Position numbers and translations under genes: made by a program. DNA of 64,000 nucleotides from Octopus vulgaris (Eukaryota): contig OX597827.1 of assembly GCA_951406725.2 (NCBI GenBank), positions 71,052,001-71,116,000 of the forward strand, written 5' to 3'. How positions within the stretch are numbered: the first letter of the stretch is position 1; every line of letters starts with the position of its first letter. The notes under the pieces were generated by a model, which searched no databases, was not told the origin of the DNA, and saw only the letters and a program-made list of their open reading frames with translations. Below, in pieces: positions 9,121 through 58,279 of this stretch.

Positions 9121-10028
9121 CAAAGTTGAGTTGTGGGGTATCGCACGAGTGGAATTATATACGAAAGAAGGTTTGAAAATGCAATTTAAAAGATGTTTAT
9201 TTACTTAACCGGTTTCACTCTTTGGAAAAAGATTGTCAAAAGTAACATAGAATACTATGAATTCAAAAACGTTTTTTACATAATTGCCACATTGAATATT
9301 AAGAATTCAAAAAAGTTTTTTTACATAATTGTCACATTACATGTATAAATATAATGTTTGGTAACAGGGATATATTAAGGGCATAAAGAAGTTCAACAGT
9401 GTGATGAGAATATTTGGAAAAATTGGCAGAAAAGAATAAAACAAATATATTATTGGAAATTTGGTTGCGTTAATTATTGGTTGTTGCAAATTGTCACATT
9501 ACATGTATATATAGAGAGTCTTTGGTAAAAAGGACATGTTAAAGACATAAGGAAGTGCAATAGTATGGTGAGAATATTTGAAAAATTGACAGAAAAAATT
9601 TAAATGAATATATTATACATCTCAGGGTCCGTACAGAATATTATGAATTGAAGGCGAGAGTTTGTTTTTACTGACCTGTTCGTTTTAGCAGAAATGTTGA
9701 ATTGAGAGAAATGTACCCGTTTTGTTCTGTTTATGGCTTCCCTTCAAGCATCAATGATTTTGGGGTTATCATGAGGTGAGTATGTGTGTCTCTCTGCGTG
9801 TGTATGAATAGATGTGTCTGTGTGCCCGTAGTATCTGGTCAGACGGCGTCTGTTTGTCACACACATACACACACACAACACACACACACACATAATATAC
9901 AAACACACAACACGCACACACAACACACACACATACAGAACACACACATACACAACGCACACACATATATAATATACACACACAGCATACAGATATAACA
10001 TGTATTTATATATAATACACACACATAT

Positions 10029-11119: not shown

Positions 11120-12094
11120 TTAGAGTATGTTTAGTTGTGGTCTGTATTTTTGAATAAGATTACTTTCCCTATTTATTCGTGTTTGGTCTGTCGTGTTGTC
11201 CGAGCATTGGTATAGTGGGAAGACTAAGAATTTGGGGGACTTATTGTGTGCACAAAGGTCTAAGTGTCCACTTAGTGGTATCTGTCTTGTAGAGGGGTCC
11301 CTCAGTTGTTGTCGGTGAACTGTCATTCTTTCTCTGAGGGTAAGGCTCGTTTGCCCTATGTAGTCTTCGTGGCATCCTTCACACCTTATGACGTAGAGTA
11401 AATTTTTTGATGCGCACGTGAAATTATTTTTTATGATGAATGTGTGTCCCGAGTGGAGCTTGTACGTCGATCCCTCAATGAGGTGGATGCAAGTCCTGCA
11501 GTTGGGGCGACCACATTTTTTGATGGTGGGCGGTGGGTTTGTGTTGTGTAATTTTGCGTTGGTGAGGAGGTTTTTTAGGGATTTATGTTGTCTCTTACTT
11601 TTTATTATTTTATGAGCTGCCAGTATTTTTTTCAGGCGTGGGTCTTGATTTAGTTGTGGAATGTTGTTGTATATAATAGTGTAAGCTTCTGCATTCCTTG
11701 GGTTGTGTGTTGAGAGATAGGGGAGGCTATTTACTGTACTGTGGATGTGTTTGGGTTTTCGTAGGTCTTGAGTGTTGATTGATTTGGCCCGTTCTATTCC
11801 GTTGTCTACTAGTGATGCCGGGTAATGTCTTTCGAGAAGAATTGCCCTTAGTTCCCGGAGTCTTCTATTTCGTGTTGTGTCATTTGAGACAATAGTGCAG
11901 ATTCTTCTCGCTAGGTTGAAGGGGATATTTGTCTTTGTGTGTTTTGGGTGATTGGAGGTGAATAGAAGGTATTGTTTAGAGTCAGTGGGTTTGTAATGGA
12001 TGTCAGTTTCAATCTTGACGCCTTTTTTAATGATTAGAATATCAAGAAAAGGGAGTTGGTCCTGACTATATTCCATTGTGAATTGAATCTCCAA
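11120..12094 (-). CDS. Penelope-like ORF 3' part (RT end and thumb, CxxxxCxxC linker, GIY-YIG endonuclease); 5'-truncated, no genuine start
   Basis: IQFTMEY..LPFLDI..TDIHYKPTD; CGRPNCRTC; FTCASKNLLYVIRCEGCHEDYIGQT..RERMTVH..GH..RE..I..Y.P.LN. The mirror copy 12089-12927 (+) has two +1 frameshifts. Confidence 0.9.
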   Translation of the reverse strand: MEIQFTMEYSQDQLPFLDILIIKKGVKIETDIHYKPTDSKQYLLFTSNHPKHTKTNIPFNLARRICTIVSNDTTRNRRLRELRAILLERHYPASLVDNGIERAKSINTQDLRKPKHIHSTVNSLPYLSTHNPRNAEAYTIIYNNIPQLNQDPRLKKILAAHKIIKSKRQHKSLKNLLTNAKLHNTNPPPTIKKCGRPNCRTCIHLIEGSTYKLHSGHTFIIKNNFTCASKNLLYVIRCEGCHEDYIGQTSLTLRERMTVHRQQLRDPSTRQIPLSGHLDLCAHNKSPKFLVFPLYQCSDNTTDQTRINRESNLIQKYRPQLNIL

Positions 12095-14809: not shown

Positions 14810-14854
14810 TTACTTTTGACAATCTTTTTCCAAAGAGTGAAACCGGTTAAGTAA
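14810..14854 (+). ncRNA. Minimal type-I hammerhead-like motif with U3:A8 core in the Penelope 3' end (mirror copy 9201-9245 on -)
   Basis: TTACTT-TTGACAA-TCTTT(TTCC)AAAGA-gt-GAAA-CCGG-TT-AAGTAA, followed by AATAAA. Confidence 0.6.
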
Positions 14855-14946: not shown

Positions 14947-15285
14947 AGGTTTGGAGATGATGTACAGGTATTATATATTAGAAGAAATGAGGTAATCAGA
15001 AGATCGGATGGTTCATATTTATAGATATTTATTTATATATTACATTTTTTACATATATATATAATATCATTCAGATCATATCATTCAGATTATTAGCGCT
15101 TTCTCCCATTCTAGTGGGGTTTTCAAAAATTAATGAAACGTTTAATTTGATTTGAAAACCCCACTAGAACGGGAGAAAGCGCTAGTAATCTGAATGATAT
15201 GATCTAATGATGGTAAAAATGTCGAAATAAATATCTATAAATATGAACCATCCGATCTTCTGATTCCTCATTCTTCTAATATATA
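14941..15285. mobile_element. Small foldback, probable inverted pLTR of a second Penelope-like family
   Basis: Arms about 14972-15127 and 15150-15285; ~31-nt unpaired tail; (TA)n flanks; TTGAAAA-cccc..ggga-GAAA-GCGC-TA motif in each arm. Confidence 0.65.
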
Positions 15286-15751: not shown

Positions 15752-15810
15752 CGACAGACGCGTTTCGAATTTAAAGTAAATTATATTTACCTATTATTCT
15801 CCTCAGTGCG
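15752..15810 (-). ncRNA. Minimal hammerhead ribozyme motif with canonical core
   Basis: Minus strand cgca-CTGAGGA-GAAT..ATTC-GAAA-CGCG-TC-tgtcg; stem I imperfect. Confidence 0.6.
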
Positions 15811-19507: not shown

Positions 19508-20169
19508 GCTTACGTAACAGGATGGCGGTGCATAAATCACAAATTAGAAACCCTGAATACCGGAAAATATGGGTCAGACCCGATTCTGATTGGTCAAAAC
19601 ATTGATGACGTCTCGTTCTGCTGGACTAGCCACCTAACAGGATGATTGGTTTGGAACTATACGACGTCAGTGAAAAGTTCAAGTGACCACAGCTAAGCTG
19701 AGCTGATATAAACCCAACAATCACAAAATTCACCAAAATTGTACGAACAGACACCAACCAAAAATCATTACTGTTGCTCCCATTGGAACACAAGGTAAAA
19801 TCTAAAATGAACTCCTCGCTTTTTCAAGAACATGAATTTTTTATATTTGATTCTATTGAATGTATGTCACAATTATGAACTACTACATCATACTCTTTAA
19901 ACATATAGCATGGACTCCCTTTATTATATATGAATTTTTTATATTTGACTCTATTGAATATTATATATATGAATTTTTATATTTGACTCTATTGAATATA
20001 TGTCACAATTATGAACTATTACATCATACTCTTTAAACATATAGCATGAACTCTCTTTATTATATATAATTTTTTTTTGATAAGGTTCGTCATTTCAAGA
20101 ACCGAAACATGTTAAAAAATAAAAATTAAAATTTGTCTAATATAGCAGCATTTTCAAACTTCATTTTTT

Positions 20170-20173
<4 letters not shown>
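19508..20173 (+). mobile_element. Non-coding pLTR-like element between (TA)n tracts, with CCAAT/CRE/TATA-like motifs, an internal tandem duplication and a hammerhead-like motif
   Basis: gattggt twice, tgacgtc, gatataa; duplicated segment about 19830-20065; HHR-like motif at 20072-20118 followed by AATAAA. Confidence 0.6.
20072..20118 (+). ncRNA. Minimal hammerhead-like motif with U3:A8 core
   Basis: TTTTT-TTGATAA-GGTTC(gtcatttcaa)GAACC-GAAA-CATG-TT-AAAAA. Confidence 0.65.
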
Positions 20174-30198: not shown

Positions 30199-30577
30199 AA
30201 ATCTCTGAACGAGGTATAAACAGTAACTGCACGACAATGTGAGGTATACTTGCCATCTCAATATGGCTAACCACTAAGGGTGGGTGTTACTGTAGCTTCT
30301 AGCCCCAGGAGAACGTCGTCTCCAGCTGGCTTTAGGCACACTTTCTGTGCCCTTATGGTATTTATCGTACGCTGATGACAGGTCAAAACCTAGAAACTGC
30401 AGTCCGTGCGTATCACTTAGGTTCACGAGGGAAGGGTGACCTCCCTTTGCAAATACCATAAGGGCACAGAGAGTATGCGTAAAGCCAGCTGGAGACGATG
30501 TTCTCCTGGGGCTACAAGCTACAGTAACACCCATCCTTAGTGGTTAGCCATATTGAGATGGCAAGTATACCTCACAT
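30199..30577. mobile_element. 379-bp non-coding foldback retroelement (inverted pLTR or retrozyme-like) with 11-bp TSD
   Basis: Arms about 30237-30363 and 30451-30577; 38-nt unpaired tail; direct repeat aaattaatatt at 30188-30198 and 30578-30588. Confidence 0.8.
30366..30410 (+). ncRNA. Minimal type-I hammerhead ribozyme with canonical core; predicted cleavage after GUC at 30404
   Basis: CGTACG-CTGATGA-c AGGT(caaa)ACCT a-GAAA-CTGCAG-TC-CGTGCG; 6-bp stem I; palindromic stem III. Confidence 0.8.
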
Positions 30578-51046: not shown

Positions 51047-51435
51047 GTGTATATGTATGTACTGGATCATATAACATCCTACTACTATCGTGGCACGCCC
51101 GCATTCTTCTCCTCTTTCTTTTTCTTCTTCTTCTTCTTCTCCTTCATCTTCTTCTTCCCTGCCAAGAATTCACAACGACCTCGAACCCACAAGAGTAAAC
51201 AAGAGTAAACAAGAGAAACGTGAGACAGGCAGAAACAAGGAAAATGCCACTTGCATTTGAACACTATGCAAATGTTCTTTTTAAAAACTTCTCTTTTAAT
51301 TTTTCCAAAATTTAATTGTTCTTCCATACGTACAGTTGAAAAAGTCTCAATAACTGAAACCGGTACTGAAATGTTTTTTATTAAATTATTTTAGCATTTT
51401 CTATCTTCACTTTTTTTCCATGTATGTGTGTGTGC

Positions 51436-51467
<32 letters not shown>

Positions 51468-53249
51468 TTGCACATATGCATGCATACATACATAAATACA
51501 TACATACACACGTACATACATAAATACATACATACACACGTACATACATTTCAGAAAGAGAAATCGACCGGCTAATACATACATGCATTACAAGTGCAAT
51601 CTGTGAGTGGAACAGTAAAAATATGCGAGACTTTTCTCAAGTCCCAAATGTGAATTTGTAATTCGAAAAGAAGAACAAGTCAACATCATCGGTAACCACT
51701 GAGCCGCAGGTTTTATGTCGGAGTTATCCCAGTTACCCGAGTTGCCTTCTCCTAGAAGGATGCCCTAACAAAGGCTAGGAGTCCTTCACTCCCAATGGTT
51801 TAACCGCGCGATCGGGTATTCAGTCCGATTATTTCTATGTCCCCGCGCATGATCCAGCATTAAGACATTTATTGGATGGTCGTTGACTCTCAAGAGTTCC
51901 TCCGCCCTTTGACGGGTTTTGTTTTTCATCCCGCAGGGTGTCCAATAAACACCCTCCTCAGCAAGCAGGCTTGGTGGTGTTGCCGGTCTAGTCGCCGACG
52001 ACCCGACATGCAACAGGTTGTACTGGGTACATACATACATACATACATACATACAAACATACATAAATACATACATACATACATACATACATAAATACAT
52101 ACATACATACATAAATACATACATACATACATAAATACATACATACATACATAAATACATACATAAATACATACATACATACATACATAAATACATACAT
52201 ACATACATACATACATACATACATACATACATACATACATACATACATACATACATACATACATACATACATACATACATACATGATGGTAGAAACTCGA
52301 TTTCGAGCAATAATCTTGAAGTTCTTTTTTAAAGTAGGGAAAGGCCCTGCTACGGGGCTAATTACTCTCTCTAAACAACATGGGCATTTGCCCCCAAAAG
52401 AACTGGTCTAAACGAAGCAGCGGGTATTACATCTGAGTTTCCCTTCTGCTGGAGCAGTGGTTCTGAACCGGGGTTCATGTGACCCCTGAACGTCCGTACA
52501 AGATTTGGAGTGGGTGGGTGGAACGAAAGTAAAAGAGTAAATAGGGGGTCCACAATAGTATTTTAAGGGTTCATGAAAAAAATTTGATTTAGGTATATTT
52601 ATTGCAAGAAACAGTAATATTCCCTTCATGCTTCCAGTCGTTGAAACATGTTCTCTAGGTGAATGTTATGACAAAAAGTGGCCGTGTGGTAAGAAGCTTG
52701 GGCAAGTGTTTTCAACTAAAACCTAGGGCCGACCAAAGCCTTATAGTTGGATTTGGTAGATGGAAACTGGTTGACGTTTCAATTGCCCCGATTAGTAACA
52801 GTTAACTGTTGAATAACATATTTAGAATACCTGAGGAGAGCAAAGTGGTAATCGACAATAACAATGTCTGCGTGGAAGGTGTTTATAAGCCATTTAAGAA
52901 ACACACAAAAACCAGTAGATCCACTTCAACATTTAAATTTAATTTGCCAAAATATTTTCGTCGCTTCGAGACTGCGACCTGATATATATATATATAGGCT
53001 TGAAACGCAAAAGATTTTCTCACTTCTCGAGCGTTAAACTAATAAATCTGTTTGTTGTTTACACACCCGTCTTCGTCTTTTGCTTTTTTGTAATTTCTTA
53101 CTATATGTATATATATTCTAAATTATAACGTATATAAATAATCTTCTTATCTATCTATCTAATATCGAAGCCTCATTCTTTTGTCGTTACGCAGAGGCGG
53201 TACCATAGCCAATGAGGGTTATCCGAGGCGTGGTTATTGCTAGTTGAAA

Positions 53250-53281
<32 letters not shown>

Positions 53282-53861
53282 CATTATTATTATTATTGAG
53301 TGAGAGAGCAGTGCATGCCATCAGAGTGACACTGGGGTAAAATATACGAAACCCAGTATACCCATCATGACTACCCGTCTGATAAGGGTACACTGGGCAC
53401 ATGCATCACAACCATATGTGTGCGACATGGTGATCTCATATCAAGATAAACAGCACATGACCTTGCAGGTGGGGCCCAGTTAGAATTTTCTTCTGGTCGA
53501 GTAGCCCATCCCGCTCAAAAGGTCCCTGAATAAGGGTTGTTTAAGGATGTTGAAAGAACCACCCATGTTTCCAAAGGTGAATTATCCAAACTTCTAAAAA
53601 TTCTTTCAACACATGGCTATGATGCTCCCCCACTACTTCTGCTTGTGATCAGAGATGCACATATCATCAGCCACTAAGGGACATGCTCAACTGGTTAAGG
53701 TCAAACAACTGACAAGCAAATCTGTGGTATTGAGCAGAATATTTGCTGTAGGCCATCTTTTATACCAAGACAAAACAATGTACATGATAACACTTCCAAT
53801 CAGTTAAGATCAGAAGCCATGAGAGCCAGTGCCTGGTACTGCGTCAGATAGATAGACAGAC

Positions 53862-54540: not shown

Positions 54541-55040
54541 GCGGAGTAAAGAATACGTATACCACTCGTTTTCGGCGTAACAAAAACCCTAACCCTAATC
54601 CTAACCCTAAACCCTAACCCAAACCCTAACCCTGAACCCTAACGCAAAACTCAAACTCTAATCCTAAACCCAAACCCTAACCCTAAACCCTAACCCTATC
54701 CCTAAACCATAACCCTAAACCATAACCTTAACTCTAACCCTGAACCCTAACTCTAATGCTAAACCCTAACCCTAACCCTAAACCATAACCTTAACTCTAA
54801 ACCCTAACCCTAAGCTCTAACCCTGAACCCTAACCCTAATCCTAAACTCTAACCCAAACCCTAACCCTAAACCCTAACCCTAATCCTAAACCCTAACACT
54901 AAACCCTAACCCTAACACTAAACCCTAACCCAAACCCTAACACTAAACCCTAACACTAAACCCTAACCCTAAACCCGAACCCAAACCCTAACCCTAAACC
55001 CTAACCTTAAACACCCGGTGTACGTATTCTTTACTTTCGC
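54541..55040. mobile_element. TIR-bounded element filled with degenerate (CCCTAA/CCCTAAA)n; shorter inverted copy 57811-57974
   Basis: gcggagtaaagaatacgtatacc / ggtgtacgtattctttactttcgc; tggtatcc on both flanks. Confidence 0.75.
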
Positions 55041-56625: not shown

Positions 56626-58279
56626 TAGCGGAGTTTGGGAAAAAGCTGTCCTTCAAAGTCTCACACTTCGTGAAAAAGGTAAAGGTTCGAATGGTGAGGT
56701 GGTAAAAACGTTAAAAAAAATAACAGAAATTTAAGGGAAATTTTTTTTTTTTTTCAGAATTGTATGAAACAAGGAAATACCAAAGAATGTGTAGAGGGGG
56801 TGGATACAGTTTTCCTTTCCTGTGAGATATGAAACTTCGGACGACGCTTATTCCAAAACTTTGCCTAACAATCATCACATCATAAGAAGCTCTGTAAATA
56901 CAATTTTCATTGAAAACTCACCCTAAAGTAGATTCCTTAAACCAGACCAAAAATTATTTAGTAACAATACATAAAACAAACTTCGAGATAGATTTAACGT
57001 TGACAAAACAGGCCAAGCATTTGAATCTGCGTAATAACACAGCGTCTCTCATGTCACGTGGTTCAGTGCAAGAGAACAGAGTGCAGATGTAGTTTGTACC
57101 GAGTCAACGTTATTGACGATTATCCTTCAATTAAATTAGTTCACCAGGTGTACTAATTCCCAGTTTTTTTTTTTTCGTCGTGGATTTATATACCCCAGTA
57201 TTGGACTATTTTCTATAATGAATATCGTGGTGCTCCGTCGGTTATGATGACGAGGGTTCCAGTTGATCCGATCAACGGAACAGCCTGCTCGTGGAATTAA
57301 TGTGTAAGTGGCTGAACACTCCACAGACACGTGTACCCTTAACGTGCTAACAACTCTGCCAGCTCACCGCCTTAAGAAGCCTATGTATTATGTACTTTGC
57401 CTTTCATCCTTTCGGGGTCGATTAAATAAGTACCAGTTACGCACTGGGGTCGATATACTCGACTTACTCCGTTTGTTTGTCCTTGTTTGTCCTCTCTGTG
57501 TTTAGCCCCTTGTGGGTAGTAAAGAAATAGGTATTTCGTCTGCCGCTACGTTCTGAGTTCAAATTCCGCCGAGGTCGACTTTGCCTTTCATCCTTTCGGG
57601 GTCGATTAAATTAAGTACCAGTTACGCACTGGGGTCGATGTAATCGACTTAATCCGTTTGTCTGTCCTTGTTTGTCCCCTCTGTGTTTACCCCCTTGTGG
57701 GTAATAAAGAAATTTATAATGTTTTGATAAGTCTATCCTATCCTAACTGCTCCGAAAGGTCAATAATTTTATGGGAAGTGGGGGGCTAAGTGAATACATC
57801 GCCTTTGTTTGCGAAAGTAAAGAATGCGCACACCCGGTATTTAGGGGTTACGGTTAGGGTTTAGGGTTTAGGGTTAGGGTTAGGATTTAGGGTTAGGGTT
57901 AGGGTTGGGGTTTAGGGTTTAGGGTTAGGCTTAAGGTTAGAGTTAGGGGTGGTGTGCGTATTATTTACCTCCGCTGTTCAACGGATACTTTATTTTGTCG
58001 ACCCCCGAAAGAATGAAAGCAAAATCGACCTCGACGGAATTTGAACCTAGAGCGATGAAATGTCGCTAAGCATTTCCTCCGATGCACTAACGATTCTGCT
58101 CAAGGTCTTAAAAATATATATATTTTGAGGACTCACCCAGATTTAAATTCCTCAATCAAACAAAAAATGATTTTTTAAGAAAACGTTTGTGAAAATAATC
58201 TTAGAGGTAGATTTGACGTTTACGAAGACGTCAACACTTTTGAATTTATGTAAACAACGCATCTCTTATCACGTGATGT

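What the first reader, a model, noticed from the sequence alone, without database searches (positions are those of the whole stretch)
19508..20173. Independent element with a clean U3:A8 hammerhead: a recurring variant ribozyme class across unrelated retroelements
Seen: TTTTT-TTGATAA-GGTTC(10 nt)GAACC-GAAA-CATG-TT-AAAAA then AATAAA, in a 665-bp ORF-less element with CCAAT/CRE/TATA-like motifs between (TA)n tracts. With 14810-14854 and about 15145-15190, three sequence-unrelated elements keep the same double change (C3U plus G8A) with different N7 and different palindromic stem III (CATG, CCGG, GCGC); two share a GUU site. Inference: selection on a variant hammerhead that CUGANGA pattern searches would miss, possibly defining a TA-targeting PLE or retrozyme lineage. 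U3:A8 variants are known to be viable, but I do not know of them being described as a prevalent form in this group.
Basis: partly seen in the sequence, partly recalled or inferred. Interest (0 to 1): 0.78.

Follow-up and report, generated by a model that had tools for sequence, protein, structure and literature searches.

The report
Retrotransposon hammerheads with swapped core pair
This stretch is the broken-off tail of a common jumping gene (a Penelope-like retrotransposon) that carries a predicted self-cutting RNA with an already described swap of one core base pair; other families in the same genome use the two remaining possible swaps, so searches for the standard core would likely miss a large share of these motifs.

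Summary
The U3:A8 hammerhead motif is real (20071-20119). The 665-bp element is not independent: it is a 5'-truncated, internally deleted 3' end of a Neptune-type Penelope-like element (PLE). Its first 70 nt encode GIY-YIG endonuclease, and full copies carry a 781-aa RT-endonuclease frame.

The other two motifs also belong to PLE families, 41-55% identical in protein. The 14816 family shares a 100/100 clade with this one, so its U3:A8 is likely inherited.

Canonical C3:G8 still gives the largest single count (21,847, another stem III). U3:A8 in PLE hammerheads is published (Cervera 2014, about 1,300 hits in Schistosoma).

Beyond the finding: this genome also holds G3:C8 (10,776 matches, very young PLE) and A3:U8 (1,907, control 473) families. 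In an unbiased 1.2-Mb sample, 31 of 31 hits are Watson-Crick at 3:8. PLE loci from other samples also show all four pairs. I found no held paper on natural G3:C8 or A3:U8, but key papers were unavailable. The scan earlier noted U3-A8 and G3-C8 swaps in a phage. Cleavage is untested.

The parts
19508..20173 (+). 5'-truncated, internally deleted 3' end (pseudo-LTR) of a Neptune-type Penelope-like element, between (TA)n tracts
   Evidence: 1509 first-look candidates in G000, 40 scored; maps in three pieces on L027, L282, L317; full copy L317 has a 781-aa RT-EN frame between (TA)n tracts
19508..19577 (+). Fragment of the GIY-YIG endonuclease coding region
   Evidence: tblastn, E 4e-8; the same frame in L027 matches Pfam PF01541
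19588..19712 (+). Promoter-like words of the pseudo-LTR: GATTGG 19588 and 19644, CRE-like 19606 and 19662, TATAAA 19707; function inferred
   Evidence: sequence; the CCAAT/CRE unit is repeated several times in fuller copies
19838..20076 (+). Two 103-nt direct repeats upstream of the hammerhead
   Evidence: D10, 93% identical
20071..20119 (+). Type I hammerhead motif, U3:A8 core, palindromic stem III, GUU triplet, predicted cut after 20113
   Evidence: 52 of 57 motif rows in family loci keep TTGATAA
9156..14899 (.). Second PLE family as a 5.8-kb inverted pair; 324-aa RT thumb/endonuclease frame at 11120-12094 (-)
   Evidence: inverted arms 95-99% complementary; ORF; PF01541
14810..14854 (+). 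U3:A8 hammerhead of family 2 (twin at 9239-9207 on -)
   Evidence: 31 of 31 motif-bearing rows U3:A8
15150..15190 (+). U3:A8 hammerhead-like motif of PLE family 3, weak stem I, CUA triplet; inverted twin near 15094-15126 (-)
   Evidence: 31 of 31 rows TTGAAAA; endonuclease 1.2-1.6 kb upstream in L060, L061, L306, L310
51333..51368 (+). U3:A8 motif resembling PLE family 4, a frequent type in the genome-wide list
   Evidence: RT-EN frames upstream of the related motif in L325, L326
30366..30410 (+). Canonical C3:G8 hammerhead in a retrozyme-like repeat, about 80% identical to a U3:A8 copy (L330)

Best explanation
The element is a truncated, internally deleted 3' end of a Neptune-type Penelope-like retrotransposon, and its hammerhead motif likely keeps the core 3:8 base pair as U-A instead of C-G and is predicted to cut only when two copies pair through the palindromic stem III. 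Shown: identity of the carrier, family-wide fixation of U3:A8, and Watson-Crick pairing at 3:8 across families (C-G, U-A, G-C, A-U). Inferred: the parent element is transcribed from the CCAAT/CRE/TATA-like region of an upstream pseudo-LTR; two motifs meet in tandem transcripts or in trans; cleavage after GUU is slow and probably protein-assisted; purifying selection acts on the transposing RNA of master elements. This solo copy is most likely a passive dead insertion. The swap was probably inherited by families 1 and 2 from a common ancestor and arose again in other lineages.
For: Carrier; the C-x4-C-x2-C linker fits the Neptune/Nematis definition in PMC8557442. Fixation: 52 of 57 rows; 31 of 31 and 31 of 31. 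Pairing rule: U3:A8 10,824 (control 169) against U3·G8 236 (177) and C3·A8 288 (102); G3:C8 10,776 (111); A3:U8 1,907 (473); unbiased sample 31 of 31 Watson-Crick; loci from other samples 32 of 33 rows Watson-Crick. Descent: five host families form a 100/100 clade, and six related loci from other samples beside it have C3:G8. Literature: U3-A8 natural and active in vitro (PMC3088659); PLE motifs inactive as monomers, weak as dimers (PMC4209133); in a PLE hammerhead C3G or G8C alone abolish cleavage, the double change partly rescues, and protein is needed (PMC11167929).
Against: No cleavage was measured. The monomer's minimum-energy fold pairs through the core (-8.3 vs -5.4 kcal/mol for the two-stem form). 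Stem I is only 3-5 A-U pairs in most family copies. Copy counts are amplification, so the independent events are few. Mismatched C3·A8 cores are amplified in small retrozyme-like groups (by eye, 11 plus about 9 of the 100 listed rows; a tandem trimer in L319). A looser sample scan gave 2 of 34 mismatched hits. In the anole PLE, cleavage was not needed for insertion in vitro and no RNA-seq reads ended at the site. The G3:C8 family's stem III duplex is only -0.2 kcal/mol, and the A3:U8 family's stem II only 2 bp.
Confidence: 0.8

Rival explanations
1. The hammerhead fold is kept for a non-cleaving role, such as a binding or positioning signal for the element's protein near the 3' end; the 3:8 pair is structural and cleavage is negligible.
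For: Cleavage not needed for insertion in vitro and no RNA ends at the site in a Poseidon PLE; weak stems in families 1, 3, A3:U8 and G3:C8; yet these families amplify well.
Against: All other catalytic positions (U4 G5 A6 A9, G12 A13 A14, A15.1-U16.1, H17) fit in every family found, though my descriptors required them; fungal PLE motifs cleave efficiently.
Confidence: 0.12
2. U3:A8 is AT-biased decay of a dead ribozyme, carried along by family amplification.
For: AT-rich surroundings; a CpG route (N7 = C, G8) is visible in the retrozyme-like family (C3:G8 L320, C3·A8 L319, 94% identical).
Against: Single changes are about 40-fold rarer; G3:C8 is not an AT-ward change and sits in a family with 40 of 40 identical copies; repeated separate swaps all end in Watson-Crick pairs.
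Confidence: 0.04
3. One reading: an independent non-coding element or retrozyme, one of three unrelated elements that converged on U3:A8 and define a new lineage.
For: Family 3 falls outside the 100/100 clade of families 1 and 2, so it may have gained U3:A8 separately; the deleted form has no long frame.
Against: Endonuclease remnant at the 5' end; none of the best-matching copies covers the query in one piece, so this deleted form was not seen repeated; not tandem; proteins 41-55% identical; one clade of all six host families is not rejected (p-AU 0.367).
Confidence: 0.04

Closest known systems
Minimal type I hammerheads of Penelope-like elements, incl. the U3-A8 form of S. mansoni Cercyon (Cervera & De la Pena 2014, PMC4209133)
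   Same: In the pseudo-LTR of a PLE, mostly solo truncated copies or inverted pairs; palindromic stem III; U-rich and AU-rich flanks; U3-A8 core found in large numbers.
   Different: Neptune-type carrier in another host; 6-nt palindrome; no extra nucleotide before stem II in this family. G3:C8 and A3:U8 families are not in the main text or in the supplement part I read.
Neptune/Nematis EN+ PLEs (Craig et al. 2021, PMC8557442)
   Same: RT followed by C-terminal GIY-YIG, C-x2-5-C-x2-C linker, microsatellite bias, optional 3' tail, inverted truncated copies, hammerhead near the 3' end.
   Different: Core not CUGANGA. Neptune rather than Nematis rests on recalled sequence character; no named reference was in the tree.
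Natural hammerhead core variants (Perreault et al. 2011, PMC3088659)
   Same: C3-G8 to U3-A8 covariation seen in nature; U10.1-U11.1 mismatch as in family 2.
   Different: There a few examples; here tens of thousands of copies and all four Watson-Crick pairs.
Non-LTR retrozymes (PMC7229834; bioRxiv 10.64898/2026.07.22.740005)
   Same: Type I hammerhead, PLE-related; the genome holds 360-bp tandem repeats of this kind with C3:G8, C3·A8 and U3:A8 cores.
   Different: The finding's element is not tandem and retains endonuclease sequence.

Membership tests
EN+ Penelope-like element | ORF with RT and C-terminal GIY-YIG endonuclease | tested here: met
   781-aa frame in full copy L317; homologues carry PF00078 and PF01541; remnant in the window
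EN+ Penelope-like element | 5' truncation, inverted pairs, optional 3' tail, microsatellite insertion | tested here: met
   inverted pairs and tail; (TA)n flanks
Neptune clade | C-x2-5-C-x2-C linker between RT and endonuclease | tested here: met
   shared with Nematis
Neptune clade | RT phylogeny with named Neptune references | not tested
   no named reference came from the tools; trees used unnamed rows
Type I hammerhead ribozyme | Core nucleotides with 3:8 Watson-Crick pair, stems I and II, NUH triplet | tested here: met
   U3:A8 in place of C3:G8; stem I weak
Type I hammerhead ribozyme | Match to an Rfam hammerhead model | tested here: not met
   no hammerhead family among 113 matches at E up to 1 in the window, not even for the canonical motif at 30372, so the test is insensitive here
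Type I hammerhead ribozyme | Self-cleavage at the predicted site | not testable with these tools
   needs an assay; contigs cannot show RNA ends
Non-LTR retrozyme | Tandem non-coding monomers, each with a hammerhead | tested here: not met
   single copy with endonuclease remnant

The most novel reading that the evidence does not exclude
PLE-borne hammerheads swap the 3:8 core pair among all four Watson-Crick forms, repeatedly and in successful lineages. Natural G3:C8 and A3:U8 cores are undescribed, functional, and present in over 10,000 and over 1,000 copies in this genome, so CUGANGA-based surveys miss about half of its hammerheads and may have wrongly scored some PLE families as ribozyme-free.
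Probability: 0.4. Interest if true: 0.58.

Novelty: new variant of a known kind. Interest (0 to 1): 0.4.

Why it matters
The finding as given is a new host and carrier for a published variant. The wider result matters more. It is natural, family-level covariation of the tertiary 3:8 pair through all four Watson-Crick forms, which suggests that PLE hammerheads are held in the active fold, a point still open because cleavage is weak and was dispensable for insertion in vitro. It supplies a ready panel for assay (C-G, U-A, G-C, A-U and a natural C·A mismatch sister). It also shows that hammerhead descriptors should use N3:N8 complementarity: the swapped-core patterns gave about 23,500 matches against about 22,100 for the two canonical patterns, both lower bounds from patterns with different gaps and tails.

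Tried and rejected
Rfam scan of the window: no hammerhead match. Monomer folding: no signal for the three window motifs (z -1.26, 0.59, 0.03).

Sequencing runs: no RNA holder listed. Contigs of four runs (X1, X10, X17, X18) cover the stretch, with no listed substitution inside the core, but five rows were hidden and contigs cannot show cleavage or expression.

Linking the host's abundant C3:G8 families to an ORF failed: stretches L332-L336 gave no frame tied to those motifs, so the trees lack host C3:G8 families. Four endonuclease types (L298, L304, L308, L311) got no hammerhead assignment. A 535-bp tandem repeat with a GTGACCA core has no clear stem II and was not counted as a family, though its copies are inside the 10,776 total. 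An A3:U8 copy beside a U3:A8 twin in L252 lies at an inversion junction and was set aside.

Papers not held: Lunse 2017, Hammann 2012, Przybilski 2007, Martick 2006. Literature searches for natural G3:C8 or A3:U8 listed none that I could tie to a natural case; the library lacks most subscription papers. Supplement file 1 of PMC4209133 could not be searched, and bioRxiv supplements are closed.

Full report
Observation. The motif is as described. Stem I lies at 20071-76 and 20114-19, the core TTGATAA at 20077-83, a 5-bp stem II follows, then GAAA, the palindrome CATG and a GUU triplet. A descriptor scan of the window found six motifs: this one, the 14816 motif and its inverted twin at 9239, a weak U3:A8 motif at 51336, and C3:G8 motifs at 30372 and 15806. 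The 15152 motif was missed because its stem I is about 2 bp. Rfam gave no hammerhead match in the window. As a monomer the motif folds no better than shuffles (z -1.26). The two-stem form scores -5.4 against a minimum of -8.3 kcal/mol, and the stem III palindrome can pair between two copies at -4.6.

What the element is. A search of G000 gave 1509 first-look candidates, of which 40 were scored. The query maps in three pieces on longer copies: positions 1-70 on the endonuclease region, about 61-136 on an internal CCAAT/CRE repeat, and 136-666 on the 3' end. In L027 the frame reads through a C-x4-C-x2-C linker into a GIY-YIG domain. A Pfam search listed many 781-aa frames; copy L317 is a full element of about 4 kb between (TA)n tracts. 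Copies end either in (TA)n or in a short tail, and some stand as inverted pairs. All of this fits EN+ PLEs with the Neptune/Nematis linker as described in PMC8557442 (passages). 'Neptune' itself is my recalled assignment. The host is named by no call; an octopus-like mollusc is my recalled guess.

Are the three elements unrelated? No. The 14816 motif ends a PLE arranged as a 5.8-kb inverted pair. The 15152 family has an endonuclease 1.2-1.6 kb upstream in four loci. Protein identity is 55% between families 1 and 2, 42% between 1 and 3, and 41% between 2 and 3. On a 16-row tree, families 1, 2, 4, 5 and the A3:U8 family form a 100/100 clade. Family 3 lies outside it, among six C3:G8 loci from other samples, but a single host clade is not rejected (p-AU 0.367). 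So families 1 and 2 likely inherited the swap, and family 3 is undecided.

Fixation within families. In 63 loci of family 1, 52 of 57 motif rows keep TTGATAA; four rows are duplicates from overlapping loci and one is probably mis-parsed. Subfamilies vary in stem II and in position 17 (U or A) while keeping U3:A8. Families 2 and 3 gave 31 of 31 motif-bearing rows each (one partial family 2 row had no motif). These are best-scoring copies, so they are biased towards the query.

With one fixed tail (GAAAC-SS-GTH, gap 12-22), whole-genome counts and backwards controls were: U3:A8 10,824 (169), C3:G8 248 (272), U3·G8 236 (177), C3·A8 288 (102). Many listed single-change rows look like decayed copies of U3:A8 families. 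This tail excludes most canonical families: a pattern with a CG stem III gave 21,847 (1,347). In 120 evenly placed 10-kb stretches, the final descriptor gave 16 C3:G8, 12 U3:A8, 3 G3:C8 and no mismatch, against 0.575 hits per shuffle. A stricter scan gave 24 paired of 25 and a looser one 32 paired of 34. Seven of the C3:G8 hits come from one tandem array.

Beyond the finding. A G3:C8 core with a 7-bp stem I and 5-bp stem II ends a distant PLE family, about 25% identical to the others. The 40 scored copies are identical over 161 nt, and the pattern count is 10,776 (111). This motif folds well (z -3.25) but its stem III duplex is weak. An A3:U8 core lies about 270 nt after an endonuclease frame in L303; its pattern count is 1,907 (473), and its stem II is only 2 bp. 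A 360-bp tandem family holds C3:G8 (L320), C3·A8 (L319, 94% identical) and U3:A8 (L331, 84-86%), which suggests a CpG-deamination route followed by compensation (inference). In 83 loci of related elements from other samples, 33 motif rows were found: 27 C-G, 3 U-A, 1 G-C, 1 A-U and 1 weak U·U on the opposite strand; no shuffle control was run there. A 33-row quick tree needs 6 changes for U3:A8, at least 5 forced by starred branches, and 2 each for G-C and A-U; the tool warns that quick trees with long rows deserve less trust.

Mechanism. Shown: carrier, position, fixation and pairing rule. Inferred: transcription from an upstream pseudo-LTR, pairing of two motifs through stem III, and slow, probably protein-assisted cleavage. 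PMC4209133 (parts 1-3 of the text, supplement part 2 and passages) found a minimal PLE motif inactive alone and weakly active as dimers. PMC11167929 (passages) found that C3G or G8C abolish cleavage in a PLE hammerhead, that the double change partly rescues it, that protein is needed, and that insertion in vitro does not depend on it. PMC8495972 (passages) says the same of the rescue. That any Watson-Crick pair is tolerated in vitro is my recall of Przybilski 2007, which was not held. Against a strict rule: small amplified C3·A8 groups (by eye, about 20 of 100 listed rows) and a U3·G8 PLE example in the Cervera supplement.

What is known. U3-A8 in nature: PMC3088659 (section 8). U3-A8 as an abundant PLE form: PMC4209133. 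Searches for natural G3:C8 or A3:U8 (listings only unless cited) showed none. Passages of PMC3884650, PMC7229834, PMC10085705, PMC6155905, PMC6765202, PMC13282606 and the 2026 retrozyme preprint added no such case. Lunse 2017 and Hammann 2012 could not be read and may hold one. An earlier scan note (e1-5996897) mentions U3-A8 and G3-C8 swaps in a phage; I did not test it.

Verdict. The finding as written is a published variant in a new PLE family, and its 'independent, unrelated' framing is wrong. The four-way covariation found while testing it is a modest new variant of a known kind, untested for activity. Interest 0.40.

Noticed in passing
L092:8249-8292 (-); L324; G000 genome-wide: Very young PLE family with a G3:C8 hammerhead core; 40 of 40 scored copies identical over 161 nt, 10,776 pattern matches.
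   Followed up: yes
L303:1758-1791 (+); L332:3608-3642: PLE family with an A3:U8 core and a 2-bp stem II, nested among U3:A8 families.
   Followed up: partly
L319, L320, L321, L330, L331; window 30366-30410: 360-bp tandem retrozyme-like repeats with C3:G8, C3·A8 and U3:A8 cores in close relatives; a possible CpG-deamination route.
   Followed up: partly
L369:113-155 and L394:1964-2005: G3:C8 and A3:U8 motifs with good stems beside PLE frames in metagenome contigs of other samples.
   Followed up: partly
window 19792-19800: Splice-donor-like AAG/GTAAAA downstream of the TATA-like word, kept in L027 and L317; could be the pseudo-LTR intron known from Penelope.
   Followed up: no
L317:1602-2205: About 600 nt of possible upstream frame, in another phase than the 781-aa frame; many copies share the 781-aa length, which may mean a frameshift or intron.
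   Followed up: no
L056-L080 (family 3): Many best-matching copies begin only 10-25 nt upstream of the hammerhead core, right after (TA)n or an inversion junction; may be query bias.
   Followed up: no
L318 (G000:C1:16526000-16530000): 535-bp tandem repeat with a G3:C8-like core, 4-bp stem I and no clear stem II.
   Followed up: partly
window 53183-53310 (+): U4 snRNA match (76 bits) whose 3' part is replaced by an (ATT)n tract; likely a pseudogene.
   Followed up: no
window 54584-55012 and 57841-57950: Interstitial telomere-like (TTAGGG) arrays on opposite strands.
   Followed up: no
window 15757-15806 (-): Canonical C3:G8 core with a long AT-rich stem II region.
   Followed up: no
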